From NCBI RefSeq assembly GCF_963921235.1, contig NC_086097.1:63986001-64050000 (forward strand): DNA of 64,000 bases. The letters are read 5' to 3'. The notes beneath the pieces are model-generated. The model did not search any database. It had not been told where the DNA came from and was given only the letters and a program-made list of their open reading frames with translations. Each line of letters starts with the position of its first letter. Position 1 is the stretch's first letter. Below are positions 457 to 41,140 of this stretch, one piece after another. Made by a program: the position numbers and the translations under genes. Source of the DNA: Mobula hypostoma (lineage: Eukaryota).

Positions 457-576
457 GTAAGTTCTTTGAGCCAAGTTGAGAAAGGCACACATAAATGTAA
501 ACACACACTACAGTTAAAATAGACATCAACATTCAATTCTATATGGTGCCTAGGAAATACTATAAAGTAAAGGACA

Positions 577-765
577 GAGTTTCTCCCCACACCTTGTTTG
601 GCACATCAAACAGCAACCTTGCTGTTTCTTTAGCGTTTTGTCTGGTTTACGAGGCTGAGTTGCTGGCTGGACACTCAACACCGCACCGATGGAGAGCATG
701 CAAGGAGTCAGCCGGATTTGAACCTTGTTCCAAAGTCCGCATGCTAATACCACTGCACCACCGGC
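577..765 (-). mobile_element. Old tRNA-derived SINE
   Basis: Minus strand gccggtggtgcagtgg (A box) ... ggttcaaatcc (B box) ... gttgagtgtccagccagcaactcagcctcgtaaa, a core shared with the SINE at 37754. Confidence 0.65.
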
Positions 766-1475
766 ACAGGCTGGAAATACTATATGTCTAATTTATACTG
801 TATAGAGAAAAATACTTTAACAGATAATTTCAGTTGCTGTATTCAGTATGGTGTATGTGGTTTATTTGTGTCCAAATATCCGGACCTGCCTCTCGGTTTT
901 TTTGCACTACCTTACTTTCCATTTTTCTATTTTCTACTTATGATTTAGAATTTAAAATTTTAATATTTACTAATTTTTACTATTTTTACTATTTTTAATA
1001 TTTAATATTTGTAACCCAGGGAGTGGGAAGCGCAGAATCAAATATCGCTGTGATGTTTGTACGTTCTAGTATCAATAGTTTGGCGACAATAAAGTATAAA
1101 GTTTTATATGGGGTTGTACTCTTTCCAACAATCATCTATTGAATCAATTCTTAACTTGGATGCTGTTGCATATTAATTAGGCAAGCTAGACAGTTAAGAA
1201 CTACAGAGAGGTTAACAATGAGGTGTAGACTAGTGAAATTCCGTCAAGGGGTTACAGGTCTGTTAAGCAGCGTAGACAGTTTAAAATAGTTTGACCAGTG
1301 GGATGAAAGAAAGCTCTGCATTCCAGCCACGTGCAGAGTTGTGAATGGCAGGAGACGGTTGTGCAGAAGAAGAGAGAGCATCAAAGGAAAGAATAGTGAA
1401 TATGTTCATGCAACTTGAACACATCCCCATTCCTTAATCATTGTTAGATCCAAATCCTGGAACTCGATACCAACA

Positions 1476-1669
1476 CACATCAAAGTTGCTGGTGAACGCA
1501 GCAGGCCAGGCAGCATCTCTAGGAAGAGGTACTGTCGACATTTCGAGCAAGGGTCTTGGCCTGAAACGTCGACTGTACCTCTTCCTAGAGATGCTGCCTG
1601 GCCTGCTGTGTTAACCAGCAACTTTTATGTGTGTTGCTTGAAATTCCAGCATCTGCAGATTTCCTCGTG
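1476..1669 (+). mobile_element. Penelope-like terminal-repeat insertion with 5' inversion (fold-back)
   Basis: Inverted arms 1471-1544 and 1563-1636; 14-bp TSD ACTCGATACCAACA at 1462-1475 and 1670-1683; same sequence as the Penelope tail at 55340-55464. Confidence 0.8.
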
Positions 1670-1967
1670 ACTCGATACCAACAGCATTGTTTGAATACCT
1701 TCAGAAAGGAACTACAGTGATTAAGTATGGCAGCTCACCATTACCTTTTTGAGGGAAGTTGGAGATTGATGATATATGTTGGCCTTGCTTGTAGTATCCT
1801 TATCTTAAACATTGAGTAAATTTAATTGCTGTACTTTAAAATATATTTAAGTTATGGGCACTCTCACACTTGACTAAAGAAATCAGGCAGTAATTATTAT
1901 TAAGGGAATGCTCTCAACATTTTTTCCAGCATCTTTCAAGACATGGGTCATTAGAAGTCACCTATCA

Positions 1968-4634: not shown

Positions 4635-4727
4635 TGATGTTTTCTGGCCTATTTGAACCTGTGTTGTACTGTCATTTCAATTATAGCATATTTTTTCCAA
4701 TTTAAATGTCTGTTACTTTTTGCATGT

Positions 4728-5550
4728 GCAGTTAATTTGGACACATTGGGAGCAGAATATTTTGACCCAATTAAGTGGCTGCTCCAATTTGCCAAAGTTT
4801 CATGGAAATAGTCGAAAAGGTATTTTTTTAAAAAAGACAAACTACAATTTAACTAACAAATCATGTATTTGAGTGAAATATAGAACAAATTAGAACACTA
4901 CCAATACTACTACAGTACTATAAAGCTGTGTATGAATTCCTAATAATTACCAACGCGGGAATTCATCCTATGTACACTACCATTTTCTTTTTATTTTCTG
5001 TAAATGAACAAAATCAGTGCAGACTCTTTAGTGCAGATAATGGACTGCCTTCATACAATGCTTTGGCAACTGCATCCTCCAAATCTTCATTTCATTGTAA
5101 CATTCAAGATGATTGTCAATACCTTCAAATTCTTCATAGTTTCTAATTTGTTGTAGTAGTGAAATCATTTCATTTTCACACCCAGCCATTTCTGGCAACT
5201 CCATGCCTTGAATGCTTGAAACCGCAGTGAGTAGAACAGTTTTGAGTTGTCTTGCTGCTTATTTCTTGCCAAATATCAGTGACAAAAATCACTGGTTTTT
5301 AAACACAAACATGTGGAACTGATGCTATTTTAAAAGCTATTCGCTGTAAGCACGGTTTAGTGTCCCATAGCCACTCAAGTGCATGCAACTGTTTGGCAAC
5401 AGTTTCCTGCCCCAATTAACAAGCATAGTGTCCCAAAAAAGTGAAGGGTGTCCTGACCTTTTTCTCAGTTGATTCCTGCTCTTTAAGAGTTGTCCCAAAT
5501 GAGCAGCTGCCCCGATTAACCAATGGCCCAATTAACCAGAATCCACTGTA
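4728..5550. mobile_element. pogo/Tigger-like non-autonomous DNA transposon
   Basis: Right end ...cccaattaaccagaatccactgTA with repeated cccaattaa subterminal motifs; degenerate left end gttaatttggaca...cccaattaag. Confidence 0.55.
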
Positions 5551-6944
5551 CGTGATTAGCTAAGGTGATGTTCAGTTGTCTTAGCCATGACTGATTTCTT
5601 TATTAATTTAGTTTAGTGTATTGTCAAATCAGTGTTGTTTTATACCATTGAAATGTGTCACATGTACTTTGGAATAGCCTTTATTAGCACATTTAGAATG
5701 AGTCATGTTACTTGCTTGGTAATACCCTACCTTTTGAACTTAAAGTGCGTAATAGACAGAAAGAAAGCACAGGATGATTCACTGTTTTATCAGGGCTTAG
5801 GAATCTTGATTTAGAAAATCCAGAGAGGAAAAAAATTTGGGTGTGTAGTCCATATCTTGTGACAAAACTAATTTATACACACTGCTTAAAATAACTTGTG
5901 TTGAAAAAACCATTATTACACAATTAACTTAAATTTATCATGTGCTTCATAATTGATTAATATTAAGAGCTCTATGCATTGTTGACATCTTCAGTGCTTT
6001 TATTCTGGTGTTTAAATTTTGGCAGTCAGGTTTTTATCTATTCATAGCATTGAACTTTAATAAGAATCACATATAGTAACAACAATTCTCTGTTACTTTA
6101 AATCTAGTTATGGTCCTCCTTGATCTCCATGCAATTTTTGCCAGCATCATTGATTGCCTTGTCTTACATTTCAATTGTGCATCTTAATGGAACTGCATTT
6201 GCACAGATTAACTTGCATTGAGTGTCTAAATTAGAAGGAGACATATCAGATTTTGAACTAATCTGTGAGTGTCCGCATAAGTCTTCTCCCGTTCTTCTTC
6301 ACCAAACACATCAGGAATATCTTTCTGTTTCATTCCTCTATCTATCAATCTTTGCCTTTCATCAATATTATTTACCTCTGCCATTACTATGAACATCAAT
6401 TCCACTTGATTTAGAGGTTCCATGTAAGAGCGAATTTCATTTTCTTAGAATTCTTTTAATAAAGAAAACTCTTCAATATTCCCTGGCAGATTTGTTAGTG
6501 ACTTCCTCACATTGAAGTTTTAACTTCAAAATAGAAACAATTTCTCCAGCCTTGGATCCAATAGCATTGTGGCACAATGTACATACAGTATAAGCTCACT
6601 GGATAGTGTTTGGAAAAAAAATACTGGAAATATAAATAGGGCAGCATTTGTGGAGGGCGAACAAGAGTGTCAGGTCAGAACCCTTTCTTCTGTTACTGAT
6701 TTGCATTTTTAAACTGTTTTTCTCTTTATGATGCTTTTTTTTAATAACACCATACAAACCATTCCATTCACTTCAGCAGCCAAGAGGAAAGCACACAACT
6801 GTCTGTACCACATTTGTTGATTCCTCTACTCTTTTTGTTGTTAGATAATTTGCCTTAAGATTCCATTTTTGATTGCATTTTATTTTCTGGACGGTATGCA
6901 TTGCAACGAAGTGTGTTCGAGAAAAATAAAGTAAATATTTAGGC

Positions 6945-7315
6945 TAGGGTATCCAAACAGGCAAACAGGTGCTGGTGGGTGCTTGAATATTACTGGAACT
7001 GGAAGATTTGAGTGAGCGGAGCAGCGCGTACTGTGTCAAACTCTCTTGACCTGTGCTTTGCAGATGATGAATTGCCCTTGGGATTTTCCACCATATGAGA
7101 ACTAAGGCTTTGACCTGCCACAGTAGCTGGCAGGTTGAGTTTTTACTATCATGGACAGTATTGGCTTTCTCACAAATCTGTCTGAATTTATCCTTCTCCA
7201 TTGCCACAGAGAGGCCAAACTCTGTTTGGAAGAACCAACATTTCATATTCCACTTGGGTCGCTTACAACCTTTTGCCTCAATGGATGCTGCTTGATCTGC
7301 TGAGTTCTGCATTTT
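6945..7315 (+). mobile_element. Old Penelope 3' fragment
   Basis: ttggaagaaccaacatttcatattccacttgggtcgcttacaacc and gatgctgcttgatctgctgagttc resemble the copies at 45830 and 54960. Confidence 0.5.
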
Positions 7316-7655
7316 TTAATGAGTTTAGTGCTGGGACATTTCCCTGAAGATCTCTTGCAGCACTATTCTGAGACTGGTATGATTGACCTGCAGCATCCAG
7401 AACCTCCACCTTTTATGCAGGGTAGAATTCCAGTCATTAGGTGTTTCCCCTCAATGTTCATTCACTTTGATCTCAGTATGGCCCCTTGATGCAGACTCTA
7501 CTAAATACTGTCTTTGTCAAGGTCAGTCATTGTTGTCTCCATTTCTGAAATTAGCTCTTTTGGTCTGTGTTTGGACTAAGGTTACAATGAGGCTTGGATT
7601 CAATTAGTCCTGGAAAACTCAAACTGGGGACCAATAAGCAAGTTGTTAGTGAGTA

Positions 7656-16614: not shown

Positions 16615-18050
16615 TTCAAAAGTTCAAAGTTTACAGTAAATTTATTATCAAGATACTTATATCACCCTATACAACCCTGAGATTCATTTTCTTGCGGGCA
16701 TACTCAATTCCAGATAGAATAATAACCATAATAGAATCAATGAAAGACTGCACCAACTTCGTCATTCAACCACTGTGCAAAAGATAACAAACTGCAAATA
16801 CAAAAAGAAAGAAAGAATAACAATAAATGAATAAGCAATAAATACTGAGAACATGAGATGAACAGTCCTTCAAAGTGAGTCCATAGGTTGTGGCAAGTGA
16901 AGTTATCCCCTTTGGTTCAAGAGCCTGATGGTTCGGTGTAGTAACTGTTCCTGAACCTGATGGTGTGAATCAAGAGACTCCTTTACCTTCCTGATGGCGA
17001 CAGCAAGAAGAGAACACATGTAGAGGTGCTTAATATTTCTGACCCTCTCCATCTGTCATCCTGTGATGAGGATTGGCTCGTGGACCTCTGCTTTCCTTCC
17101 CGAAGTCAATAATCAGCTCCTTGATCTTGACGGCATTGAGAGAGAGGTTCTTGTTGTGGCACCACTCAATCAGATTTTCAATCTCCCTCCTATATGCTGA
17201 TTTGGCCAATGACGATGATGATGTCAGCAAACTTAAATATGGCATTGGAGCTGCACTTAGTATAAATGAGTAGAGCAGGGGCTAATCTCACAGCCTTGTG
17301 ATGCACCTGTGCTGATGGAGATTGTGGAGGAGACATTGTTGCCAATTTGAACTGATTGGGGTCTACAGCTGAGGAAATCAGGGTTCCAGTTGCTCAAGGA
17401 GGTATTGAGGCCTCGGTCTAGGAGCTTATTGATTAGTTTTGTGGAGATGATAGTATTGAATGCAGAGTTGTCATTAACAAAGAGCATCCTGATGTTGACC
17501 TGTTGTGACAGTAGTCAAAACTGGAGCGAATCCAAGTCACTTCTCAGGCAGGAGTTGACAGATTCATCCCCAGCCTCTCAAAGCACATCATTGCAGTGGA
17601 TGTAAGTGCTACTAGACGATAGTCATTAAAACAGGTTACCACGTTCTTCTTGGGCACCAGTAGGCACAAGTGAAGTCTGCTTGAAGCAAGTGGGTACCTC
17701 AGACTGCCGAAGCGAGAAATTAAAGATCTCAGTGAGCACTCTAGCCAGCTGATCGGCACATGTCTTTAATACCTGGCCATGTACCCTGTCTGGGCCCTGT
17801 GCTTCTCATGGGTTCACCCTCCTGAAGGCTGCTCACACATCGGTCAGGGAGATTGAAGGAGCTGTGGGAGTTCATGATGGTTCCACCATGTTTTGACGGT
17901 CAAAGCGAGCATGGAAGGCATTGAGCTTTAACTGGAAGCGAAGCCCTGTTGTTGCCCATGTCACCTGATTTGACTTCTTAAGACATGATGGCATTTAAAC
18001 CTTGCCACATCTGTCGAGCATCCTTTATTGAATCAAGTTTAGTCCGACCA
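16615..18050 (-). mobile_element. Degenerate Rex/Babar LINE
   Basis: Minus ORFs NDYRLVALTSTAMMCFERL, SAFNTII, AYRREIENLIEWC; 3' UTR similar to 53830-54480. Confidence 0.75.
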
Positions 18051-19729
18051 GTACATTCATAGGGAGTGTTCATTTCCATTTGCTATAGAATCATAAGTAG
18101 TGGTTTTTGGGTTATTCCCTTGCCCTTTATCTATAATGTTGAATTTCCTTATTCTTTTCAAGCCAAAACTGATCCATTTTTCATTCAGTGGAAGGTTTGG
18201 GACTTACAGAATCACTTGCTGTGCAAGGGAGATCAGAAAATGGCAGAATCAGTACTGGTAGGACCTATGCTTGTGGTTGGTGAGTGGTGGACAGGTCAGC
18301 TGCATTGCAGAGGCCCTAGTGACAACATGGTCAAAATCCAACTGTATCCATATCATTGTTGCATGAAGGAAGTCATTGGAGAAAAGTACTGATAGGTATG
18401 AAGCAGCCTCTTTATTCAACAAAATACGATGCAGCATCAAACAGAAGATGCTTTTGGTGGGAACATCTACCTATGCCCAGCACTACACACATTTTATATG
18501 CTAAAGATCAAAAAAATTCAGGACAATTCAAACAAATCCATTTTTACAATGCCCTCTTGAACTATACATATAACCATTTAAAATGTCTGGATCTTCCCAC
18601 CATCACACCCAAAACAAGTGCTAATACCTGTCGCATCTGTGCAGCGAAATGTTGATTGGACTCATGCATATGCAGACATTCAGCTAAGTGCATGTTTCCT
18701 GTTCTGTCTGGTCTGTGATTCAAGGCTTTTAGGAACCTATTGTTCAGAGCCGCACTAAAGTCAAATCCACAATCCATATTCAGATCTAAAGGCCGAGGTT
18801 ATCCACTAAGTGTGCTAAACCCAAAAATCGCTCTAACAGTCCCTCCTCATGGACCTCCTGGACAAAAATAAATTTGTATCAGGAAATGTTGACCTTAAGG
18901 AGGACCTATTTAAATAGGCCAGCAGAAATGCCCTGCCTCGGAATCCCCCCCCCCCCCATTATTTTGAATGCATCTGTATCTACATCTACCCTATCATCCC
19001 TAATTGCTACCTACAAAATACTAAACAGAGAGATTGTTCCAGAAATTTGAAGAATGGTCTTCAGAAATACAGCTTTGTTCGTAAGTCTGTTGCCTCCTTC
19101 CCTGCTGGCCGATTGCAGTTTAATCACATTCCTTGTCTGTACCCCTTCATTCTCTGGTAGCTGAAACTCTCTCTTCCAGGGACAGCAGCAAGGTAAGTGC
19201 ATCAGGCTTACAGGCCCTCTCATCAATGGAAGGGGTTGGGGTGGTCTCTATCCGAATGACTGCAAGGGCCTCCCCCCAGTGGCACCCCCTTCCAAAATGT
19301 CCAGTCAATCACTGGCCTGTCTACTGAAAGGACCCGGCTCATTTGTATTCACTCCCCATTCAGGCTGGGGTGATTGCCTTCAGATGCCATGTGCAATCTT
19401 CCTCTGTCTGCCTTGCCATCAGTTGTGAAACCTGATGTCTCTGATGTAACCTAAATCCCACTCCATCTATTTTCCCCAATATCTTTTCTATGTTAATCAA
19501 CTAATCATCTACTTCCAGCAACCAGCCTTCATTACATGGGTTTCTGTCACGCTGTTGGTGTCTTCTGCCTTTGCATTTTGCTGTGGGTATGTTTCCATCA
19601 ACTGTGGTCAGGCCTGGTGTGGCTGGCTGATGTTCATCTCCTAGGTTCTCTGAAATTACATGGTTACTGGGTACATTTGATCCCCCACTCTGTCTTTGGG
19701 GCCAACAAGAAGGTGAGTCATACAGTTTA

Positions 19730-20351
19730 ATCTGAGTTCAGTGTCTCCACTGGCTGCCTCACTGAGTCTGCACACAGACACAGGTGTCACTTGTTAAAAG
19801 TACCATCTGTGATCCTATCCATCTGGGGGAAAACCCTACCCTTTCTGGCAGCACCCTCACCATGGGTGACTATCCCCTTTCCTTCTGGCTCTCCCTGATC
19901 AGCAATGTGCTGCTGTTTTGCTCGGTCCTTCAACACTTTTAAGTTGTTTACAAAGGTCTTTCACATACTGTGTCATTCTATCCCTGTAAGCCCCAGGCTC
20001 CCCACAGCCTGTAATTACCCCATAATGGAGTCACATTGCTCACCCCATCAATAGGGGCTGCGACTTACTGTGCAGTTTGGGGATTGCTCGCTATGTTATC
20101 AGGATTCCTGGTAATACATCAACCCATGTCTTTCCTGTCTCGGCTATAGCTTTGCCTAAGGCATTCTTGATTGTTCGGTTCATCCTTTCTACCATTCCTG
20201 AATTCTGAGGGTGGTAGGGTACTTGGAACTGTTGTTGAACCCCTAACAGTCGGCACATTTCCTTCATCACTTTCCCTGTGACGTGCTCCTGATCCAAGTC
20301 CACCTGGACTGGAGTTCGCCACCTTGGGGGGATTTTCTGGTCTCGAATCCG
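19730..20351 (-). mobile_element. Endogenous retrovirus integrase fragment
   Basis: VQVDLDQ...[35 protein letters not shown]...WVDVLP, then MVRVLP..FSPRWIGSQMVLLT; compare MLV YRPQSSGQVERMNRTIK and EPRWKGPYTVLLT. Confidence 0.8.
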
Positions 20352-21419
20352 TGCACTTATTTCAAAAAGTCAACAATTATACCAGTGCCTAAGAAGAATA
20401 ATGTGAGCTGCCTTTATGATTATTGCCCGGTTGCACTCACATCTACAATGATGAAATGCTTTGAGAGGTTGGTTATGACTATACTGAACTCCAACCTCAG
20501 CAAGGACCTGGACCCATTGCAATTTGCCTATCGCCACAATAGGTCAACAGCAGATGCAATCTCAGTGGCTCTCCACACGGCTTTAGACCACCTGGATGAC
20601 ACAAGCACCTATGTCACGATGCTGGTTCATCGACTATAGCTCAGCATATAATACCATCATTCCCACAATCCTGACTGAGAAGTTGCAGAACCTGGGCCTC
20701 TGTACCTCCCTCTGTAACTGGATCCTCAACTTTCTAACTGGAAGACCACAATCTGTGCGGATTGGTGATAACATCTCCTCCTCGCTGACGGTCAACACTG
20801 GTGTACTTCAGGGGTGTGTGCTTAACCCACTGCTGTACTCTCTCTATACCCATGACTGTGTGGCTAGGCATAGCTCATATATGGTACGATCTATAAATTT
20901 GCTGATGATACAGCCACTGTTGGTAGAATCTCAGATGGTGACAAGAGGGCATAAAGGAGTGAGATATGCCAGCTAGTGGAGAGGTGTCGCGGCAACAACC
21001 TTGCACTCAACGTCAGGAAGATGAAAGAGCTGATGGTGGACTACAAGAGGATAAGATGAAGGAACACATACCAATCCTTATAAAGGGATCAGAAGTGGAG
21101 AGAGTGAGCCGTTTCAAGTTCCTGGGGGTCAAGATCTCCGAGGACCTAACCTGGTCCCAACATATCAATGCAGTTATAAAGAAGACAAGACAGCAACTTT
21201 TCTTCATTCGGAGTTTGTAGAGATTTGGTATGTCAACAAATACACTCAAAACTTCTATAGATGTAGTGTGGAGAGCATTCTGACAGGCTGCATGACTGTC
21301 TGGTATGGGGGGGGAGGGGGCTACTGCACAGGACCAAAAGAAACTGCAGAGTGTTGTAAATTTAGTTGGCTCCATCTTAATTAGCAGCCTACAAAGTACC
21401 CAGGACATTTTTAAGGAGC

Positions 21420-24396
21420 AAGAGGATAAGACGTGAGAGAATAGGACCAATCAAGTGTGGCAGTGGAATAGTGTGTATGGAACCAGAGGAGGTAGTGGAG
21501 ATACTTAATGAATACTTTGCTTCAGTATTCACTACGGAAAAGGACCTTGGCGATTGAAGGGATGACTTACAGCGGACTGAAAAGCTTGAGCGTATAGACA
21601 ATAAGAAAGAAGATGTGCTGGAGTTTTGGAAAGCATCAAATTGGATAAGTCACTGGGACCCAATGAAATATACCCTAGGCTATAGTGGGAGGTGAGGGAG
21701 AAGATTGCTGAGCCTCTGGCAATGATCTTTGCATCATCAATGGGGACGGGAGAGATTCCGGAGGATTGGAGGGTTGCTGACGTTGTCCCTTATTCAAGAA
21801 GTTGAGGATGCCATAGTCTACCTGCTGAACCATGTCTACGCCCACCTGGACAAGCCAGCGAGCACTGTGAGGGTTATGTTTTTTGACTTCTCCAGTGCGT
21901 TCAACACCATCCACCCTGCTCTGCTGGGGGAGAAGCTGACAGCGATGCAGGTGGATGCTTCCCTGGTATCATGGATTCTTGATTACCTGTCTGGCAGACC
22001 ACAGTACGTATGCTTGCAACACTGTGTGTCCGACAGAGTGATCAGCAGCACTGGGGCTCCACAGGGGACTGTCTTGTCTCCCTTTCTCTTCATCATTTAC
22101 ACCTTGGACTTCAACTACTGCACAGAGTCTTGTCATCCTCAGAAGTTTTCTGATGACTCTGCCATTGTTGGATGCATCAGCAAGGGAGATGAGGTTGAGT
22201 ACAGGGCTATGGTAGGAAACTTTGTCACATGGTGTGAGCAGAATTATCTGCAGCTTAATGTGAAAAAGACTAAGGAGCTGGTGGTAGACCTGAGGAGAGC
22301 GAAGGTACCGGTGACCCCTGTTTCCATCCAGGGGTCAGTGTGGACATGGTGGAGGATTACAAATACCTGGGGATACGAATTGACAATAAACTGGACTGGT
22401 CAAAGAACACTGAGGCTGTCTACAAGAAGGGTCAGAGCCGTCTCTATTTCCTGAGGAGACTGAGGTCCTTTAACATCTGCCGGACGATGCTGAGGATGTT
22501 CGAGTCTGTGGTGGCCAGTGCTATCATGTTTACTGTTGTGTGCTGGGGCAGTAGGCTGAGGGTTGCAGACACCAACAGAATCAACAAACTCATTCAGAAG
22601 GCCAGTGATGTTGTGGGGATGGAACTGGGCTCTCTGACGGTGGTGTCTGAAAAGAGGATGCTGTCCAAGTTGCATGCCATCTTGGACAATGTATCCCATC
22701 CACTACATAATGTACTGGGTGGGCACAGGAGTACATTCAGCCAGAGACTCATTCCACCGGGATGCAACACAGAGCGTCATAGGAAGTCATTCCTGCCTGT
22801 GGCCATCAAATTTTACAGCTCCTCCCTTGGAGGATCAGACACCCTGAGCCAATAGGCTGGTCCTGGACTTATTTCCTGGCATAATTTACATATTACTGTT
22901 TAACTATTTATGGTTTTATTACTATTTATTATTTATGGTGCAACTGTAACGAAAACCAATTTCCCCTGGGAGTAATAAAGTATGACTATGACTACTAAGA
23001 AAGGGAGTAGAGATAGCCCAGGAAATTGTAAACCAGTGAGTCATACTTCAGTGGTTGGTAAGTTGATGGAGAAGATCCTGAGAGGCAGGATTTATGAACA
23101 TTTGGAGAGGCATAATATGATTAGGAATAGTCAGCATAGCTTTGTCAAAGGCAGGTTGTGCCTTACGAGCCTGATTGAGTTTTTTGAGGATGTGACGAAA
23201 CACATTAATGAAGGTAGAGCAGTAGATGTAGTATATGTGGATTTCAACAAGGCATTTGATAAGGTACCCCATGCACAGCTTATTGAGAAAGTAAGGAGGC
23301 ATGGGATCTAAAGGGACCTTGCTTTGTGGATCCAAAATTGGCTTGCTCACAGAAGGCAAAGAGTGGTTGTAGATGGGTCATATTCTACAATGGAGGTCGG
23401 TGACCAGTGGAGTGCCTCAGGGATCTGTTCTGGGACCCCTACTCTTCGTGATTTTTATAAATGACCTGGATGAGCAAGTGGAGGGATGTGTTAGTAAACT
23501 TGCTGATGACACAAAGGTTGGGGATGGTGTGGATAGTGTGGAGGGCTGTCAGAGGTTACAGCAGAACATCGATAGCATGCAAAACTGGGCTGACGAGTAG
23601 CAGATGGAGTTCAACCCAGGTAAGTGTGAGGTGGTTCATTTTGGTAGGTCAAATATGATGGCGGAATATAGTATTAATGGTAAGACTCTTGGCAATGTGG
23701 AAGATCAGAGGAATCTTGGGGTCCGAGTCCATAGGACATCCAAAGCTGCTGCACAGATTGGCTGTGTGGTTAAGAAGGCATATGGTGTATTGGCCTTCAT
23801 CAACTGTGGGATTGAGTTCAAGAGCCAAGAGGTAATGTTACAGCTATATAGGAACCTGGTCAGACCCCACTTGGAGCACTGTGCTCAGTTCTGGTCACCT
23901 CACTGCAGGAAGGATGTAGAAGCTATAAAAAGGGTGCAGAGGAGACTTACAAGGATGTCGCCTGGATTGGGGAGCATGCCTTATGAGAATAGGTTGAGTA
24001 AACTTGGCCTTTTCTCCTTGGAGCGGTGGAGGATGAGAGGTGACCCGATAGAGGTGTATAAGATGATGGGAGGCATTGATCGTGTGGATAGTCAGAGGCT
24101 TTTTCTCGGGGCTGAAATAGCTAACATGAGAGGGCACAGTTTTAAAGTGCTTGGAAGTAGATACAAAGGAGATGTCAGGGGTAAGGTTTCTACGCAGAGA
24201 GTGGTGAGTGCGTGGAATGGGCTACCAGCGATGGTGGTGGAGGCAGATACAATAGGAACACTTGGATAGATACATGGAGCTTAGAAAAATAGAAAGCTAG
24301 GGGTGACCCTAGGTAATTTCTAAAGTAAGTACATGTTTGGCACAACATTGTGGGCCAAAGGGCCTGTATTGTGCTGTAGGTTTTCTATGTTTCGAT
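21420..24396 (+). mobile_element. CR1 LINE (21420-21800 plus 22997-24396), degenerate
   Basis: [31 protein letters not shown]; ttttctatgtttc tail; flanked by GAGC TSD. Confidence 0.9.
21801..22996 (+). mobile_element. Young Rex/Babar LINE nested in CR1
   Basis: FFDFSSAFNTI, GAPQGTVLSP, KFSDD; tatgactatgac tail; AAGAA TSD at 21796-21800 and 22997-23001. Confidence 0.9.
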
Positions 24397-24795
24397 GAGC
24401 GTTGTCTCAGAAAGGCAGTGTCCATTATTAAGGACCTCCAGCACCCAGGGAATGAATGCCCTTTTACTCACTGTTACCATCGGGTAGGAGGTATAGAAGC
24501 CTGAAGGCGCACACTCAGCGATTCAGGAACAGCTTCTTCCCTTCTACCATCCAATTCCTAAATGGACATTGAACCTGTGAACACTACCTCACTTTTTAAA
24601 TATATATTATTTGTTTTTTGCATGATTTTTAATGTATTCAATATATATGTTGTATATACATACTGTACTGTAATTGATTTACATATTTTTTATTTCTTTT
24701 TCCCCTTCTATATTATGTATTGCATTTAACTGCTGTTGCTAAGTTAACAAATTTCACGTCACATGCCGGTGATAATAAACCTGATTCTGATTCTG

Positions 24796-25962
24796 ACCTC
24801 TTCATATAATTTTTCTAAACTGTAGTAGTTTCTTCCTGCACACTTGCAATTTCAATTGCCTCTTGTCCCTCTGCTGCCTTCTTCACACTGATGTCTGCCC
24901 ACTCATTTCCTCTCTGCTCCTTACGCTGCCCTCTCTGGTGAGCTTTTACTTTAATTACTGCCACCTCTGCTGACAGACTCACTGCTTCAAGCAGTTGTTC
25001 TATTAAGTGCCTGTGCTGAATACATGCACCTGTTGAGGTTACAAATTCCCGTCGTGCTTATGCCATCAGATAATCATTCACCACCCCGAGGGCATACCGG
25101 CTGTCTGTGTGTGTGTATATATACTTGTCTGCCTTTACTGTAGCTCAGTGCTTCTATCAGGGCTACCAGTTCTACTACCTGAGCTGAGCAACCCCCGGCA
25201 GTGCTCCTGAAGATAATTCTTCACCTGTTTCCTTTACTACAACTCACCCCATCTGTGGCTTCCTGCCTATGTACCTCTGAGACCCATCTTTAAAAATTTC
25301 CTCTGCTTCCCCTTCCAGAGGTGTTTCCTTCACACTGATATCATCTTCCTGCTCTATTTCCATTTGGCACTCGTGAGCCTCCCCCTGTTAGGATGGTGCT
25401 TGCAGGATTCATTCCAGTGTCCCTAACTATCGTGACTGACTTGTCTTTGGGGATGAGAACCAGCTCCCAAAGCTGCCCTCTGCTGTTGGTGGCTGCTCTC
25501 AGCCTCCCTGTATTCAGGAGCTCTACAATGGTATGGGCTGTGTGTAGTATGACTTGTCCCATCATTACGACTTGCACTGCCCACACGGTGCAGTCTAAAG
25601 CTGCTACACAGCGGGGAAGTCCTGCTGCAATGGGTGTCTGTTTCATTGCCTTCTTGTGTCCTCATCGTTCTGCACCACTACTGCATTATAATACCCTCCC
25701 TCATTGCTGCTGTATAGGTGAAAGGGGTGAGCCACATCTGGTATCCTAGTGCAAATGCAGAAACTAGGGCTTCCTTGATATCTGTAAAAGCCTTTAGCAC
25801 CCCCCCCCCCCCCACAATTACCTTATGTGCATCTGCACATCTCAAAGCAGGGCAGGATTGTGCAGCTGTACTGTGTAGTGTCACACAAGTTCCTGTCTCT
25901 AACTTTTTGGGGAAGAGCAATTTCCAAGCTTGTACTTTGGTTCTCTGGAGAGTGCAGGGCAT
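24796..25962 (-). mobile_element. Endogenous retrovirus pol fragment (RT thumb, tether, RNase H)
   Basis: KAFTDIKEALVSAFALG; PIAAGLPRCVAALD...GQVILHTAH...NPAS; FKDGS...SAQVVELVALIEAL...TDSRYALG...IKVKAHQ...RGNEWAD..VKKAA (with frameshifts and stops). Confidence 0.8.
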
Positions 25963-27230
25963 GGAGAAAGAGAAGATAATATGCTTTTACAAAGTGAAGA
26001 GAATATGAAGTGAAAATTGCCAAGCTGCAAACTTCGAAATGGGAATATGAAGGGGAGAGATTGAAGAGGCAGAATTGTCTCCTCTCTCAGTCTCTGTTGT
26101 ATTTGTTTTTGTGATTGTGTGTCTAGGAGTCATTGGAACAGATCTTATTTTGCCCCAGAAATTGCTACCTACTTGCACAACACCACACTGTTTGCCAAAG
26201 GTCCATTTTCATTAGAAACCCAGCAATGAATGCAGCATTGGGTTGTCTTAACACAGGCAGCCATTTGTATTCACAGAGCCCTTTTGAGCACCAGAAAGGC
26301 CCATCTGCCCAGTTCCATAGACTTTCAACATTGTCATTGTGATCAAGATCATTGAAGCTTTGTGAATGTCTTTGACAATAACGAGCATTCTGCAAAAATC
26401 AGCTATATTAAAGTTTAAAGTATATAGGTAAATAATAATGGTATCTTTAAATTTAAAACTACATCAATATAGTAACTTTAAAAAAACACTAAAACAAAAT
26501 AAGTACTGAAAACATTACTCCAAACACTAGCGTCAGGGACTGCCATACTTGTACCAGATTTAACCTGGCACAGATTCAGGGAGCTTTTCAGCTCAAGAGC
26601 TAGAATGCCTGTGGAAGATTTTGCAACCTTGTTATATTCCTTGAAGAGTTCATCAGAGAAGCACAGGGCAGGCAGAAGATATCACTGCCAATTTAGACTG
26701 AATCCAGTACTGGAAACTTGGACTCCAAGAATGTTCCTGGCGTTAGTGTCATGACTTACCCATGTGCCCATAAATATCCTGCCACTATAAACTTTTGTGT
26801 ATTTTTAAAATCAAGTTAGTGATGGAAAGAGGAGAAATTATCATGTCAAAAGCACAGTCATGCTACAATCCAGCATTTGGTGTTAGTATCAAAGCATACC
26901 ATTCTGAAGTTGGAACATTTGGTTACATACTCCTTTTAACTTCGGTCAAGGACCAAGCAATTCTAGATTTCAAAATAACAATGAAAAATAAGGGTTCTCA
27001 TTCTTTTTAATCATATTTGATTATTTGCCAACATTTACCTGAAATCCCTGTTGCCATAGTGACAACCCCATTGATTTACCCTGTAGATTAGAGTAGAAAA
27101 GGTAAATTAAGCTCACTTTTTTCATATTTTATAAATTCTCCTCAGGTGACTGCAGGGTTCTATTCATATAAATTGTTCATAAGCCAGAAAGTTCACAGGT
27201 TAGAATTGCAGCTCCAGATGAAGTTCACAT

Positions 27231-27242
27231 CCCCCCCCCCCC

Positions 27243-27275
<33 letters not shown>
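27231..27275 (+). repeat. poly(C) plus (CA)n microsatellite
   Basis: A C run followed by about 15 CA units. Confidence 0.9.
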
Positions 27276-27277
<2 letters not shown>

Positions 27278-27972
27278 CAGGAGATGCTTGCAGCCCCACA
27301 GCAGCCAACAGATCTATTCTACTGGTCTCCCAAACAAACGTACAGGCTGTACTTCAGACAGGTGTAGGGGAAACCTGTACTTTATTGCAATATTTTTATT
27401 TATCAGAGTCTAAATGTGTTTTAAGTTCACTTAGTTTCTATTTATTTAAATCAATCTTGTATGTAAAACTCTTCCAATATTTAGCAGATTTTGATGGAAG
27501 GTGAGTCTCCATCTCCCCGCTTGCCTCCTATCAGGACATATTGTGCCTTTCAAGATCCTACAAAGTGTTTCACTGCCAATGAATTACCTATCCTTGGAGT
27601 CATTGAAAAATCTGGAAATATAGTGGTCTTCTGCAAGAGACAGTTACAAAATAATATATCTTATATTTATTTGGATTATTTCCTTTTTTCACAAGCAGGG
27701 ATTTTCCCAAAAATATACGAAGGATTTTTGTAAAGATTTAATAGGAAGAAGAGTGTGAACTGATCTTACTAGCAGTAAAGGAGCTTGACATTCATTACTC
27801 TGAAGCCTTTGTTAGTTTTGTAATGCCCATTGTCATGTTTCAACAGTATCCCTATCATAATTAATTGTTTAGCAGAAGACAACTTAAATATACATTTGTA
27901 TGCAAATATAGAAGAATGTTTACATTAAATATGAAGCTTTAACTTTATTAATTTGCAATGTTTTTCAAACAG

Positions 27973-28121
27973 CTCCTTGACGTAGTTTCTCATCTTGCCC
28001 GACAAAACTTGCGTATCCTTGTCCTTGGGCGCAGGCACATGTTGAAAGGAACACGGAACTGGGACAAGGGCCATATGGCTGCCATACAGAAATATGCGGA
28101 CTGCTTCTTTACCTCAAATAT
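27973..28121 (+). CDS. PRORP: PRORP (mitochondrial RNase P catalytic subunit) internal coding exon, 149 nt
   Basis: Acceptor tttttcaaacag, donor gtaagt. Translates [49 protein letters not shown](I), matching the human PRORP segment [24 protein letters not shown]...CFFADDI. Confidence 0.95.
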
Positions 28122-28748
28122 GTAAGTTAAGTTTTAAAGTAATAAGTAAAAAGGAAAATTTCAGAAAAAGCTATCACCCCATCTTAGCATAAAGAATTTA
28201 ATAATTTCCAATACCAGAGTTAAAAGAAAGGTAAAGAAGGGTTGTTGGATTAATCATGCCTGTCTAATCAAGAAAACATGGTGGAGTGGGGCTATGTTTT
28301 CAGCTCTTTCAGACAGCTGGTACAGGGCAATGAGCCAAATGATTTTGTTCTTCTAAGTATAGTTTTGAAGTAATTATAAGACTATAAGACCATAAGATAT
28401 AGGAGCAGAATTAGGCCATTTGGCCCATTGAGTCTGCTCTACCATTTCATTATGTCTGATCCAATTTTCTTCTCAGCCCCAATCTCCTGTCCGCTCCCCA
28501 TAGCCCTGACCAATTAAGAAACTATCAATCTCTGCCTGAAATATACATAAAGACTTGGCCTCTGCTGCTACCTTCCACTGAATTCCACAGAATCTTCACT
28601 CTCTGGCTGAAGAGAATCCCTCTCATCTCCATCTAAAAGGATGTCTCTCTATTCTGAGGCCGTGTCCTCTGGTCTTAGACTCTCCCACCACAGGAAACAT
28701 CCTCTCTACATCCAATCTATCAAGGTCTTTCACCATTCGATAGGTTTC

Positions 28749-30109: not shown

Positions 30110-30494
30110 ATTTAGAAAATAGTCAACCCTATCATTTCTTTTGCCAAAGTGCATGGCCATACACTTTCTGACACTGGATACCATCTGCCATTCTTTGCCC
30201 ATTCCCCTAATTTGGCTAAGTCCATGTGTAGCCTCTCTACTTCCTCAAAACTACCTGCCCTCCACCTATCTTCATATCGTCTGCAAACTTTGCAACAAAG
30301 CCATCAACCCCTTCATCCAAATCATTGACATAAAACGTAAAAAGAATCAGTCCCAACACAGACCCCTGTGGAACACCTCCAGTCACTGGCAGCCAGTCAG
30401 AAAAGGCTCTCTTTATTCCCATTCTTTGTCTCCTGCCAACTAGTCATCGCTTTATCCATGCCAGAATCTTTCCTATAATACCATGGGTTCATAG

Positions 30495-31148
30495 TCATAG
30501 TCATACTTTATTAATCCCAGGGGAAATTGGTTTTCGTTACAGTTGCTCCATAAATAATAAATAGTAATAGAACCATAAATAGTTAAATAGTAATGTGTAA
30601 ATTATGCCAGTAAGTTATAAAATAAGTCCAGGACCAGTCTATCGGCTCAGGGTGTCTGACCCTCCAAGGGAGGAGTTGTAAAGTTTGATGGCCACAGGCA
30701 GGAATGACTTCCTGTGACGCTCAGTGCTGCATCTCGGTGGATTGAGTCTCTGGCTGAAGGTGCTCCTGTGCCCGCCCAGTACATTATGTAGTGGATGGGA
30801 GACATTGTCCAAGATGGCATGCAACTTAGACAGCACCCTCTTTTCAGACACCACCATGAGAGAGTCCAGTTCCACCCCCACAACATCACTGGCCTTACGA
30901 ATGAGTTTGTTGATTCTGTTGGTGTCTGCCACCCTCAGCCTGCTGCCCCAGCACACAACAGTAAACATGATAGCACTGGCCACCACAGACTCGTAGAACA
31001 TCCCCAGCATCGTCCAGCAGATGTTAAAGGACCTCGGTCTCCTCAGGAAATACAGACGGCTCTGACCCTTCTTGCAGACAGCCTCAGTGTTCTTTGACCA
31101 GTCCAGTTTATTGTCAATTCATATCCTCAGGTATTTGTAATCCTCCAC
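30495..31148 (-). mobile_element. Young Rex/Babar 3' fragment, same family as 21801-22996
   Basis: Near-identical peptide ESVVASAIMFTVVCWGSRLRVADTNRINKLI; tcatagtcata tail; CATAG TSD. Confidence 0.9.
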
Positions 31149-33245
31149 CATAGCTTGTTAAGTAGCCTCATGTGTGAAAATCCAAATACGCAGCATCAAC
31201 CAATTCTCCTTTGTCTATCCTATTTATTATTTCTTCAAAGAATTCCAGGGAAAATTTTCCCTTGAGGAAACCATGGAATTACAGCCTATTTTATCATGTG
31301 CCTCCAAGGATCCTGAGACCTCATCCTTAATAATCGACTCCAACACCTTCCCAGCCACTAAGGTCAGACTAACTGGCCTACAGTTTCCTTTCTTCTGCCT
31401 CTCTCCCTTCTTGAAGAGTGGAGTGACATTTGCAATTTTCCAGTCTTCCATAACCATTCCAGAATCTAGTTATTCTTGAAAGATCATTACTAATGCCTCC
31501 ATAATCTCTTCAGCCACCTCTTTCAGAATTCTGTGGTGTACACAATCTGGTCCAGGTGACTTATCTACCTTCAGACCTTTCAGCTTCCTAAGAACCTTAT
31601 GTCTAATTAATCTAACTTCACACACTTCATGCTCCTTGACACCTGGAGCTTCCACCATACTGTTAGTGTCTTCCACGGTGAAGACTGATGCAAAATACTT
31701 ATTCAGTTCATCCGCTATTTCGTTGTCCCCCATTACTACCTCTCCAGCTTAGTTTTCCAGAAGCCCAATATCCATTTTTACTTCTCTTTTACACTTTATG
31801 TATCTGAAGAAACTTTTGATGTCCTCTTTAATATTATTGACTAGCTTACTTTAGTGTTCCACTTTTACCTTCTTTTTAGTTGACTTCTGTTGGTTTTTAA
31901 AACCTTCCCAATCCTCTAACTTCCCACTAATTTTTGCTCTATTTTGTGCCCTATCTTTGGCTTTTATGTTGGCTTTGATTTCTCTTGTTAACCATGGTTG
32001 TGTCATCTTTCCTTTAGAATACTTCATATATATATCATGTGCCTTCTGAATTGCTTCCAGAAATTCCAGCCGTTGCTGTTCTGCTGTTATCCCTGCCAGT
32101 GTTCTTTTCTAATCAATTGTAGTATATTTATGTTTTTCAAAATTGAGTCCTTTCCATGACTTCTTAATTGTTAACTTTTGGGAATCCTGCCTCAAGTTCC
32201 TATTATCAACTTCATTTCTTATAACTACTAGTTCATTTCGTTAAGTTAATATACTGAATAATTTTAAACCATTAATGTATTCTAATAGTATCATTAAGAA
32301 ATATCTCTTGATTCAGTAATCTTACTTGCCATCATCCATTTAAAAGATAACAAAAGAAAGAAATTGAAAAGTGAATTTATTTTTACACATCCATCCTGTA
32401 GTCTCAATCATAATGGTAAGTATCTGCTGTTTTAGCAAATTTAGGTATACCTTGGTTGTCTGAATTTAGCTTTAGAAATAAGGTCACTCACTGAAGCCTC
32501 ACAGTTATTTACTGCTTTACAGAAGTTATTTCCTATTGTCTGATATAATAGATAGTGAGCATTACATTGAAAATATTCAGTAATCTACTGTATGTTGGAT
32601 CTCTATTCTATTGGGGGGAAAGTGAGCACTGAGTTTTAAGTAATTATTTGGTACAAACAGTTCAAATTTTGTGCATTATTGGGTCTTTCAAAAAAAAGTA
32701 GGGTGTGGGGTGACCTAATAGACATCTTTAAACTGATAAAAGAATTCGATATTGTATATTGAGAGAGTGTTTCTATTTGTGGAAGGGCATAACTAGGTTC
32801 CATTAATGCACTGTAGTCCCCATAAAATCTAATAGGGAATTTAAATGATCTTTTTTTCCCCAATGAGTGGTACCAATGTCAGACATAGTCTCAGGTGAAA
32901 TCGTTGAAGTGAACGCTATAGATGCCTAAAAGGCTCAAAAAGCATGTAGAGGGCCAGGCCGATAGATGGAGATGAGAAAAAATGGGAGAAGATTCACATG
33001 GAGCATAAATACTGGTTAGGCTAATTGGCCTGTTTTTGTTCTGTATTTAAAACATCAATAAAGAGTATACTTGTCCATCTGAAGAACTCATATTTAATGT
33101 GAAAACATGCTGATACTATTGAAATAGTATCTCTCTTACTATCTTTTTGTTGGTTTACATTCTTTGCAGACATCCTGTTCATGTTGGGCTGATCTTGTCT
33201 GTTTTAATTGAATCCAAAATTGTTTCCCTTCAGAGAATTGCAGAA

Positions 33246-34911: not shown

Positions 34912-35107
34912 ATCAGAAGATGACCCTTTTCTCTTATATGCAACAATACTTTCAGGCAATCACTGTAAATTCCTTAGTAGAGACCTCATGAGGGATCATA
35001 AAGCTTGTATGCCTGACGAAACCACCCGGCGCCTGTTCTTCAAGTGGCAACGTGGACACCAGCTTGTGCTGTCAGGTTGTAATCCAGGGCACAAGATGAA
35101 ATTTGAG
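34912..35107 (+). CDS. PRORP: PRORP penultimate coding exon, 196 nt (NYN nuclease catalytic aspartates)
   Basis: Acceptor tctcgatccag, donor gtggga; phase continues from the previous exon (AT|A = Ile). Encodes [65 protein letters not shown] with intact DD and RDLMRDH motifs. Confidence 0.95.
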
Positions 35108-36838: not shown

Positions 36839-36970
36839 GTCATACCAAATTATGACACAATAGTGCAGTCAACAAAAAATACTTGGCACATACCATATGA
36901 AGAAGAAGGAGTGGAGAGAAGCTCCTGTGAAGTTCCACGTAAATGGTTGTGTCTTCAAAAGCGTAATTGA
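36839..36970 (+). CDS. PRORP: PRORP last coding exon, to the TGA stop
   Basis: Acceptor ctctgtag. Encodes [43 protein letters not shown], matching the human C-terminus (YDTVVQ..WHIPY..CEVP.KWLCL). Confidence 0.95.
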
Positions 36971-38830: not shown

Positions 38831-41140
38831 TCCCTCAACTGAAATATGTAGCATATTGCTCCCTAGTCATATATTTTTTCTCACCCCTTATGTGTATTTT
38901 CCCTCAATCCCAGGTCCTTTACTAGAGGCCTGTCCTCTTCTGGACCGAGATGTCAGATGTTGTTCCCGGGATTTGTTGGAGCCACGCTCCCAGTCCAGGT
39001 GTCACAGCTCCAACTACTCCTATCTCCCCTGGGATTACTCTAGCTTTAACCTTATACATCCTTTCTATCTGCTCTTTCAAGCCCTGGTATTTCTCCAGCT
39101 TCTCATATTCTTTCTTCCTGGTGTTAATGCCATTCAGGATTGCCCCATCTATTACTATTGCTTTCTTCTATTCCCATGTTCAGTATTAGTATGTCTGGTT
39201 GGTTAGCCAGTACCTGCTTATCACTCTTTATTCGGAAATCCCACAGGAGCATGGCCCTATCATTCTCCACTACCTTCTCGGGTGGTTCCCATTTGGACTT
39301 GTGAGTGTCCAATCTATACTCAGCATAGATGTTCCTGTACTAAATTCCTGCAACTTGGTAGTGCTGTTCAGTGTATGTCCCTGCCTGCATCTTTCACCTT
39401 GCTACTATGTGCTAGATAGTTTTAGCGGATTCCTTGCAGTCTGCGTTTTGGATCTTGTCTGGTGTGATAGATCCCTGCTTCTATTGCTAACATGCTCAGC
39501 GCCTGTTCTGGTGCAGCCATGAGCAGCAGCTCTGTGCTGTCCCTCAGCCCTGCCATTTCCAGCCATTGGTAGGTCTTTCTTATGTCAGGCACCGCTGATA
39601 TCGGGCGATGGCACATCCCGCGCAGTGGCTTGTCTTGCCATGGCCTCTGGTCCTCTGGCTGTGCTTCACCCACTTCCATTTTCATGTCCCCTGCCTGCTG
39701 TCTGAGGTATTTCCCCAGCAGGTTGCCCTTAGGGGCCATCTTCCTGACATACTCTGGGATGTTTCAATACCTAAGTCCCTGTCCTCCTTTATTCTGGTGG
39801 TGTACAGTTGATCGACCTTGGACTTTGGATGGAATCCTCCCTGTATTTTTAGTAGTTTCTGGGTATTGATGTCAGCAGCTTCCAGTTCATTTCTTGGCCA
39901 ACACACTATTGCGGCTGGGTATCTGATGACTGATAGGGCGAATGTCTTGATGGCTCTGATCTCGTTCTTCCCATTCAGCTGGCTTTTTAGGACCTGTCTC
40001 ACTCTTTGGAGTTACTTGGATGTTGCAGCCTTCTTTGTGTCCTCATCATGGTTTCCATGCGTCTGCAGGATCCCCAGGTATTTGTAGCTGTCCTGCACAT
40101 CTGGTATGTGGTCGTCAGGTAACTCAACTCCTTCAGTCTTGATGGGTTTGCCTTTTTCACTACCACCCGGCTGTACTTTTACAGTCCAAATTACATCCCG
40201 ATGTCTCTGCTGTACACCCTTGTCAGATGGATTAGTGAGTCAATGCCTCTTTCATCTCTGGCATACAGCTTGATGTCATCCATGTACAGGAGGTAGCTGA
40301 TGGTCACTCCACTCTTGAACCTGTATCCATATCCACCCATCTGAGATGATCTGGCTGAGGGGGTTCAAGCCTATGCAGAGCAGCAGTGGGGATAGTGCAT
40401 CACCCTGGTATATTCCACATCTGATCGTCACTTGTGTTGTTAGCTTTGAGTTAACTTCTAGCGTTCTCCTTCAATGGCCCACTGAGTTCTTGATGAAGGC
40501 CCTTGGTGTCTTGTTGACTTTGTACATTCCAGGATCCATATATGGGGCATTTCGTTGTATGCTGTCTGGTGGTTGATCCAGGCTGTGCTTAGGTTGGTTT
40601 ATCTGGTCTTGGAGTCTCACTTGACTGCTTTGTCTGCCAGCAGTTGGTACTTGAGCCTCTGGTTCCATTACCAATCCCCCTCTGAGCAGGGCTCAGGAAT
40701 TTGCACACATATTCCTTCAGTTTGGCGGTTATGATGCCTGATGTTGTTGACAGGCAGGTTATAGTCTGGCTGGTGTTGCTCTTTGTGAGGATCCTTCATT
40801 ATGAGTACTGTGCTTCCTGTCAGGGTGGGAACCAGCTTCAAGTAGCTGGTTCATTTGAGCTGCCAGTCATGTACATAATGCTGTTAGTTTCTTCAGCCAG
40901 TAGGTGTGGATCATGTCAGGGCCAGGTGATATCCACACTTGCTACCTATTGCTTGACCTCTACTGCTGTGACAATGATTGGTTCTTCCTCTGAGAGATCG
41001 CAGATGCTTACTTGTAGATCTTTCAGGCAGTGTTAAGTGATGCTTCATTCTCCTATATACCCTTCGGTATTCCTCAGTTGCTGTCTTGGTTGGTTGAGGT
41101 ACTGGCATATTGTTGCTTTGGAACTGTGCAAATACTTTAA

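What the first reader, a model, noticed from the sequence alone, without database searches (positions are those of the whole stretch)
19730..25962. Fossil class I (gamma/epsilon-like) endogenous retrovirus hidden under three layers of LINEs in a PRORP intron
Seen: on the minus strand, RT-thumb, tether (PIAAGLPRC...GQ.ILHT.H...NPA), RNase H (DGS, SAQ.VEL.AL, TDSRYA, KVKAHQ, GNE.AD) and integrase (YHPQNSGMVERMNRTIK, PRW.G...VLLT) occur in correct pol order once the 20352-24795 LINE stack is removed. Established: a tether domain followed by a second RNase H with these motifs is typical of Retroviridae such as MLV, not of Gypsy elements. Inference: this is an old retroviral integration in a probable cartilaginous fish, antisense to the host gene; such ERVs are sparsely sampled. 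The unexplained flanks (about 18060-19730 and 25960-26400) could hold env, LTR or gag remnants.
Basis: partly seen in the sequence, partly recalled or inferred. Interest (0 to 1): 0.75.

Follow-up and report, generated by a model that had tools for sequence, protein, structure and literature searches.

The report
Snakehead-type retrovirus fossil in ray intron
This is a dead, front-truncated copy of a many-copy retrovirus family in a ray-like fish genome, split by three nested jumping genes, and it most likely belongs to an already described old branch related to snakehead fish retrovirus and to turtle retroviral fossils, not to the gamma/epsilon group.

Summary
The fossil is real and retroviral, but the class label is probably wrong. 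Tether, RNase H and integrase lie in pol order on the minus strand around three nested LINEs. About 160 codons (zinc finger, first catalytic Asp) are missing at the LINE site, and no RT core, gag or 5' LTR remains. New here: a 3' LTR (18838-18357) after a purine tract; read data confirm its outer end and show a many-copy family in 4 of 4 runs laid. The 870 nt between pol and LTR has no env match, and other copies are collinear with it, so the family is likely env-less. Trees reject a place inside crown gamma/epsilon (AU p=0.0012). The closest published relatives are turtle ERVs listed in the clade Huo (snakehead-related) block of Xu et al. 2018. There is no RT here, so the clade call is indirect. 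Verdict: new ray member of a known lineage; modest interest. The scan noted other ERV fossils in this genome, but none matching this family by sequence.

The parts
25367..25797 (-). End of RT thumb and tether (degenerate first RNase H) of pol; the tether itself (25380-25646) is 89 codons without a stop; frame breaks in the thumb part
   Evidence: tblastn to sturgeon ERV protein P0073: 46% over 92 aa, 86 bits; profile hits; frameshift-tolerant score 278, starting at 25785
24796..25366 (-). RNase H of pol (core 24872-25306) and linker, broken by stops and by two frame breaks near 25180 and 25110
   Evidence: PF00075 E 6.5e-8; PDB: top 9 of 11 hits are p80 RT/XMRV-type RNase H, best E 1.8e-11; 59% to Hypanus P0005, E 1.2e-36
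20355..24795 (+). Three nested LINE fragments: outer (20355-21419 and 24397-24795), middle (21420-21800 and 22997-24396), inner (21801-22996). Outer and inner look Rex/Babar-type and the middle CR1-type (family names recalled). No duplication flanks the outer one; about 160 pol codons are missing here
   Evidence: RVT_1 in all three + frames and ALKBH8_N; self-BLAST of the halves; junctions; profile gap 795-952
19905..20354 (-). Integrase core from just before the second catalytic Asp onward; 3 stops in 140 codons
   Evidence: profile iE 2e-34; 39% over 145 aa to eel ERV pol P0185; stop count
19711..19899 (-). Integrase C-terminal domain with GPY/F-like motif
   Evidence: 43% over 54 aa to P0007, whose matching part is PF18697 MLVIN_C; profile iE 6.7e-8
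18861..19710 (-). 3' internal region, shared with other copies of the family; no env or accessory match; longest open stretch 78 codons
   Evidence: read depth and bridging contigs; best tblastn 23.9 bits against 316 ORFs of 57 loci, shuffles 21.9-27.3; no Pfam hit; 14, 14 and 20 stops in the three sense frames
18839..18860 (-). Purine-rich tract directly before the LTR (likely polypurine tract)
   Evidence: 16 of 21 purines in 18840-18860
18357..18838 (-). 3' LTR, 482 nt, TGTT...AACA ends, AATAAA at 18416
   Evidence: sequence; loose ends with unrelated flanks at 18356 in 54 and 49 contigs, agreement 0.38 and 0.41; the inner boundary rests on sequence features only
27970..28122 (+). PRORP coding exon (host gene), first one found downstream of the element
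   Evidence: PF16953 88-138, E 3.3e-13
34913..35077 (+). PRORP coding exon
   Evidence: PF16953 139-191, E 4.3e-25
36839..36961 (+). PRORP last coding exon
   Evidence: PF16953 205-242, E 5.2e-12

Best explanation
This is one dead, 5'-truncated provirus of a many-copy endogenous retrovirus family of rays, likely of clade Huo (snakehead-retrovirus-related) and likely env-less. Shown: the 3' half of pol, an 870-nt 3' region, a purine tract and a 3' LTR on the strand opposite PRORP; three LINEs nested in pol; loss of about 160 pol codons at the outer LINE; no gag, protease, RT core or 5' LTR in the window. Inferred history: an ancestral retrovirus entered the ray germ line; a lineage with a short, env-free 3' region then multiplied inside cells, as LTR retrotransposons do; one copy landed antisense in a PRORP intron, an orientation purged less often (established pattern, recalled); a 5'-truncated LINE inserted into pol with a target-site deletion; two more LINEs inserted in turn; the 5' half was deleted and the rest decayed. 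It does nothing now: it cannot encode RT or an active integrase.
For: One element: the eel full-length pol P0185 is the top scorer on the integrase core (102 bits) and, among pols holding both domains, on RNase H (107 bits), of 37 proteins compared; tether, RNase H and integrase rows, placed separately, fall at the same level of the tree. Outside class I: AU p=0.0012 against crown gamma+epsilon; integrase outside the 33-row class I+II group (94/91); RT of the proxy P0185 outside the 29-row class I+II clade (100/99) and with the snakehead-size virus when foamy viruses are left out (97/93). Published placement: in the 452-entry data set of PMC6001957 the window's tether motifs AALDC (3 hits) and LLNTG (1 hit) occur only in turtle ERVs ch_my_ERV12, ch_pi_ERV20 and ma_te_ERV13 (28 of 43 residues identical by eye); these and An_an_ERV1 (whose passage matches P0185 by eye) are tips in the block labelled Clade Huo. 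Many copies: depth 363-7550 over all 25 bins of 18324-20348 against 12 in the flank in run X1, similar in the other 3 runs. Env-less: four overlapping contigs of other copies, about 83-88% alike, chain across 18810-19917 with no large insert; no env match.
Against: The window has no RT core, and ERV classes are defined on RT; the proxy P0185 is only 34-39% identical. With foamy viruses as root, thumb-tether-RNase H trees put the window's group at the base of the class I side, apart from the snakehead group (89/92; SH-aLRT 98 under the mixture model); a clade with the snakehead group is merely not rejected (p=0.21). The Huo label is read from the text order of tip names in a figure I could not see. 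The best PDB RNase H matches are gammaretroviral, though the PDB hit list held no snakehead-like entry. Summed contig depth is not a copy number; the loose-end table was cut (3490 rows not shown), so env-bearing copies may exist. The bridging contigs come from three different organisms. In amphibians and fish, high-copy ERV lineages selected for having Env mostly kept it (10.1101/2021.11.23.469661).
Confidence: 0.7

Rival explanations
1. A stem or basal class I (ERV1, epsilon-like in the broad sense) retrovirus: the earliest branch on the class I side rather than a member of clade Huo.
For: Foamy-rooted thumb-tether-RNase H trees join the window's group to the class I side (89/92; 98). It has a class I-like tether end (NPA) and a GPY/F-like integrase tail, listed as present in ERV1 and absent in ERV3 and ERV4 (PMC4299795).
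Against: Crown membership is rejected; the RT proxy lies outside class I+II; the nearest published tips are in the Huo block. PMC4299795 notes that some snakehead- and Ovex1-related ERVs also carry the GPY/F-like motif. Foamy RNase H has a separate origin (PMC7947760), so it is a poor root for this region.
Confidence: 0.17
2. An ordinary env-bearing provirus family; this copy or its subfamily lost env by deletion, and the 870-nt region is a decayed remnant of env or of an accessory gene.
For: Snakehead-size virus L016 has a 1134-codon ORF and a 3' ORF after pol. The region has open stretches of 69-78 codons. The read tables were cut.
Against: No env similarity above shuffles; related copies are collinear across the region.
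Confidence: 0.3
3. Two different LTR elements, brought together at the LINE stack.
For: No duplication flanks the outer LINE and about 160 codons are missing. No read or contig evidence links the two sides. The first integrase search returned only 4 proteins, of a neighbouring group.
Against: Same strand, correct order, a gap that fits a deletion, the same best full-length relative for both sides and matching tree level.
Confidence: 0.05
4. A Ty3/Gypsy retrotransposon or a lokiretrovirus.
For: Lack of env; automatic names such as 'transposon opus' or 'Gypsy integrase-like' on some relatives; lokiretroviruses also have a dual RNase H.
Against: The integrase row sits among 46 retroviral rows, split from 2 Gypsy-motif rows at 100/100. 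The proxy RT is split from 4 Gypsy-motif rows at 100/99. The two lokiretrovirus passages seen have a different tether.
Confidence: 0.02

Closest known systems
Turtle ERVs ch_my_ERV12, ch_pi_ERV20, ma_te_ERV13 (Xu et al. 2018, PMC6001957; S2 Data passages and S2 Fig tip list seen)
   Same: Tether about 65% identical by eye (28 of 43 residues); the only entries of that data set with the two motifs searched; listed in the clade Huo block with whale shark Rh_ty_ERV4 and eel An_an_ERV1.
   Different: Host is a ray, not a turtle. Their RNase H, integrase and env status could not be compared. None of the five little-skate entries held the motifs searched.
Unnamed fish ERV proteins: Hypanus sabinus XP_059837178, Scyliorhinus torazame GCB67037, Pristiophorus japonicus P0008, Acipenser ruthenus RXM94928, Pimephales promelas XP_039541434
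   Same: Group with the window's tether and RNase H in every tree; 59, 41, 39, 33 and 39% identical to the RNase H read. The Hypanus protein is probably the same family.
   Different: All are partial gene predictions under automatic names; none has an RT core.
Snakehead retrovirus (SnRV; locus L016, identified by its 10,688-nt length, recalled)
   Same: Nearest exogenous virus to the RT proxy; defines clade Huo.
   Different: Distant (long branch); has env and a 3' ORF; its tether lacks the NPA end seen here.
Epsilonretroviruses (WEHV-1 pol P0083, source-named) and gammaretroviruses (MLV type)
   Same: Same pol layout; RNase H 35% identical to WEHV-1; best PDB matches; GPY/F-like tail.
   Different: Placement inside their crown is rejected.
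Env-less ERVs that spread by retrotransposition (Magiorkinis et al. 2012; title seen in reference lists only, content recalled; MuERV-L, search listing)
   Same: Short pol-to-LTR interval and many copies.
   Different: Described mostly in mammals; here the mode of spread is inferred, not shown.

Membership tests
Retroviridae (vs Metaviridae) | Tether followed by a second RNase H | tested here: met
Retroviridae (vs Metaviridae) | Pol groups with retroviruses, not Gypsy | tested here: met
   integrase tree 100/100; RT by proxy 100/99
Retroviridae (vs Metaviridae) | LTR with TG...CA ends, poly(A) signal and purine tract | tested here: met
   3' LTR only
Retroviridae (vs Metaviridae) | env gene | tested here: not met
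   no match in the 870-nt interval; env loss is common in ERVs, so this does not exclude the family
Class I ERV (gamma/epsilon; clades Jin, Mu) | RT groups with gamma or epsilon viruses | not testable with these tools
   no RT core in the window; the proxy P0185 falls outside
Class I ERV (gamma/epsilon; clades Jin, Mu) | Thumb-tether-RNase H inside crown gamma+epsilon | tested here: not met
   AU p=0.0012
Class I ERV (gamma/epsilon; clades Jin, Mu) | Integrase in the gamma+epsilon group | tested here: not met
   outside the 33-row group, 94/91, just under the starred level
Class I ERV (gamma/epsilon; clades Jin, Mu) | GPY/F-like motif after the integrase core | tested here: met
   not exclusive to class I
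Class I ERV (gamma/epsilon; clades Jin, Mu) | 4-bp target-site duplication | not testable with these tools
   5' LTR absent from the window
Clade Huo (snakehead-related) | Nearest classified relatives belong to clade Huo | tested here: met
   motif look-up and tip order in PMC6001957 supplements; the figure itself was not seen
Clade Huo (snakehead-related) | RT groups with snakehead retrovirus | tested here: inconclusive
   proxy only: 97/93 without foamy viruses, unresolved with them
Clade Huo (snakehead-related) | Thumb-tether-RNase H forms a clade with snakehead retrovirus | tested here: inconclusive
   not rejected, p=0.21; not recovered in foamy-rooted trees
ERV3 and ERV4 (Chong et al. 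2014) | No GPY/F-like motif | tested here: not met
   motif present against Table 1 of PMC4299795
Lokiretroviruses | Loki-type tether; F-like env | tested here: not met
   tether differs from 2 of 144 supplement passages seen; no env; no loki sequence was in my trees
Ty3/Gypsy (Metaviridae) | Single RNase H directly after RT; Gypsy-type integrase | tested here: not met

The most novel reading that the evidence does not exclude
An undescribed, env-less family of the deepest orthoretroviral grade, between snakehead retrovirus and class I, spread by retrotransposition to hundreds of copies across myliobatiform rays, and its closest kin are turtle ERVs, recording a ray-turtle host jump. Such a family would give many dated copies of the lineage from which the class I tether, RNase H and integrase tail descend.
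Probability: 0.3. Interest if true: 0.45.

Novelty: new member of a known kind. Interest (0 to 1): 0.25.

Why it matters
The locus itself is genomic debris. Its value is as a pointer to a ray ERV family on a poorly resolved stretch of the retroviral tree, where class I-like tether and integrase features sit on a non-class I backbone. It also shows that these motifs cannot be used to call class I. If the turtle link holds, it adds a cartilaginous-fish case to the turtle transmission hubs proposed by Xu et al. 2018; if env loss holds, it adds a fish case of an env-less spreader. I found no paper on this family in batoids in 7 searches; repeat libraries such as Repbase or Dfam could not be searched and may already hold it.

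Tried and rejected
No whole genome is held, so copies could not be listed. The tether alone found nothing among 95 candidates. P0185 found nothing in viral contigs; the RNase H alignment found nothing in metagenome contigs (137 pattern matches, 0 confirmed). No read data exist for the RNase H side or the 5' boundary, so copy number and the true 5' end there are open. Env, gag or accessory remnants in 18840-19715, the LTR, 25960-28000 and 17950-18356: best scores 21.9-24.6 bits, within the shuffle range 21.9-27.3 (shuffles made for the 3' region only). No second LTR copy in the window. Thumb similarity in 25800-26500: scores 25-27 against shuffle means 27-30. The gamma-type best PDB hit was rejected as a classifier because the hit list holds few retroviral groups. 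The first RT tree carried a long-branch warning and was rebuilt with foamy, beta and Gypsy-motif rows. Rows were thinned by hand for the trees: 45 of 87 RT rows, 51 proteins, 30. No date is given: no host rate or LTR pair is available. The 3' region was not tested against the protein language-model atlas. PMC8227577 and PMC10435555 (passages) added nothing on this lineage.

Full report
Observation. The minus strand holds, in pol order, the end of an RT thumb, a tether, an RNase H and, beyond a 4.4-kb LINE block, an integrase core and tail. Four diagnostic motifs occur once each and never in 30 shuffles. Pfam gives RNase_H at E 6.5e-8 and rve_3 at E 2.6e-4. A profile of ten related pols maps the pieces to positions 458-794 and 953-1172 of 1177. 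So about 160 codons, covering the zinc finger and first catalytic Asp, are missing at the LINE block, and nothing upstream of the thumb is found; the only other LTR-type RT in the window is a separate fossil near 45,100-45,500. Pol similarity starts at about 25,795; 25,800-26,500 scores no better than shuffles.

LINE stack and host gene. The halves of the outer LINE match adjoining parts of one copy at 57,023-57,645 (78 and 72%), the halves of the middle LINE match adjoining parts of 41,149-42,810 (86%), and the inner LINE is 93% like a copy at 30,492-31,151. GAGC and AAGAA duplications flank the two inner insertions; none flanks the outer one, which fits a target-site deletion (mechanism recalled). 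Three PRORP exons (PF16953 positions 88-242) and two proteasome-subunit exons lie downstream on the + strand. The first PRORP exon found is internal, so the element is inferred to be intronic and antisense.

A 3' LTR and a many-copy family. After the integrase come 870 nt, a purine tract and a 482-nt stretch with TGTT...AACA ends and AATAAA 59 nt before its end. Contigs from 4 of 4 runs, of four organisms, cover the whole stretch; in run X1 depth is 363-7550 over all 25 bins from 18,324 to 20,348 against 12 in the adjoining flank, and 54 contigs leave the sequence at 18,356 into unrelated flanks. That fixes the outer end and shows a repeat family, probably of hundreds of copies, although summed depth is not a count. 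Contigs of other copies chain across 18,810-19,175, 19,065-19,370, 19,327-19,719 and 19,625-19,917 with no large insert. The interval matches none of 316 ORFs from 57 retroviral and retroelement loci above shuffle level and no Pfam family. I infer an env-less family or subfamily. Against this: the tables were cut, and the chain mixes organisms.

Relatives. The RNase H read matched 625 of 1.84 billion representatives at E up to 0.001. I looked up names for 30 proteins in all. The best hit is from the stingray Hypanus sabinus (59%, E 1.2e-36), then catshark (41%), minnow and sawshark (39%); a sturgeon protein matches the tether best (46%). The best full-length pol, P0185, clusters with an eel protein and scores highest on the integrase core and, among pols with both domains, on RNase H. 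This, with strand, order and gap size, supports one element.

Placement. References were WEHV-1 (source-named) and virus genomes from IMG/VR whose names I assign from recalled lengths and motifs. In RT trees the proxy P0185 groups with the snakehead-size virus (97/93) or, with foamy and Gypsy-motif outgroups, lies unresolved beside it, outside the class I+II clade (100/99). In thumb-tether-RNase H trees the window's two rows join the ray, shark, sturgeon and minnow proteins. Forcing this group into crown gamma+epsilon is rejected (AU p=0.0012); forcing it with the snakehead group is not (p=0.21); the free foamy-rooted trees make it the first branch on the class I side (89/92; 98). The integrase row lies in a polytomy with P0185, outside the class I+II group (94/91) and far from Gypsy (100/100). 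All three regions thus point to the grade between snakehead retrovirus and class I.

Comparison with print. In Xu et al. 2018 (PMC6001957: passages, section 7, supplement look-ups and the S2 Fig text seen), two tether motifs of the window occur only in three turtle ERVs among 452 entries; a third motif, from the RNase H, had no hit. By eye 28 of 43 tether residues are identical, more than to any database hit. These turtle ERVs, whale shark Rh_ty_ERV4 and eel An_an_ERV1 are listed after clade Shui and before clade Tu, in the block carrying the label Clade Huo. The paper defines Huo as related to snakehead retrovirus and including class III ERVs, with class I confined to Jin and Mu. Han 2015 (PMC4422223, part 1 of 2 read) and a review (PMC4977317, passages) report snakehead-like and epsilon-like ERVs in elephant shark. 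Wang and Han (PMC7947760, parts 1-2 of 4 and supplement passages) show that the dual RNase H is shared with lokiretroviruses. Chong et al. (PMC4299795, passages) note unclassified snakehead-related ERVs with a GPY/F-like motif. A mobulid genome preprint (passages) gives retroviral LTRs as 0.15-0.63% of batoid genomes. Supplements of the bioRxiv Env survey (passages and sections 6 and 8 read) could not be seen and may list this lineage.

How it worked. Shown: the anatomy, the nesting order, the deletion and the repeat status. Inferred: germ-line entry of a Huo-grade retrovirus, env loss, copying by retrotransposition, antisense insertion into PRORP, then three LINE insertions, loss of the 5' half and decay. 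The copy is inactive. Its age is undetermined; the nested LINEs at 86-93% identity to their siblings suggest it is old.

Verdict. The class I label is not supported. This is a new ray member of a published lineage, with two modest points worth following: likely env-less spread, and turtle ERVs as nearest published kin. Interest 0.25.

Noticed in passing
window 18017-18356: In organisms C and D (runs X10, X12) the single-copy flank contigs stop matching at 18345-18346, about 10 nt short of the LTR end; the X12 contig has 266 further letters not listed as laid. The site may be empty or rearranged in those species, while a contig of run X1 spans the junction with no differences.
   Followed up: partly
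window 44047-45800, minus strand: Separate decayed Gypsy-type LTR element (RT and integrase zinc-finger matches).
   Followed up: no
window 53658-59588, plus strand: Exons of a proteasome alpha subunit (PSMA6-like, name recalled) downstream of PRORP, matching the usual vertebrate gene order (recalled).
   Followed up: partly
window 38900-40700, minus strand: Decayed non-LTR element of a different type from the CR1 and Rex-like LINEs; strong AT skew.
   Followed up: no
P0002-P0004, P0208-P0210: Intact, unnamed snakehead-related pols from unnamed assemblies; the P0002 cluster has 47 members.
   Followed up: partly
L015 and L016 pol: Both carry long inserts in pol with two-histidine-like motifs: between protease and RT in L015, at the integrase start in L016; earlier scan notes describe such domains in ray ERVs.
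   Followed up: no
window 19536-19577 and 18705: Other copies of the family carry a 75-nt variant in place of 40 nt at 19536-19577 and a shared alternative LTR segment at 18705, hinting at subfamilies.
   Followed up: no
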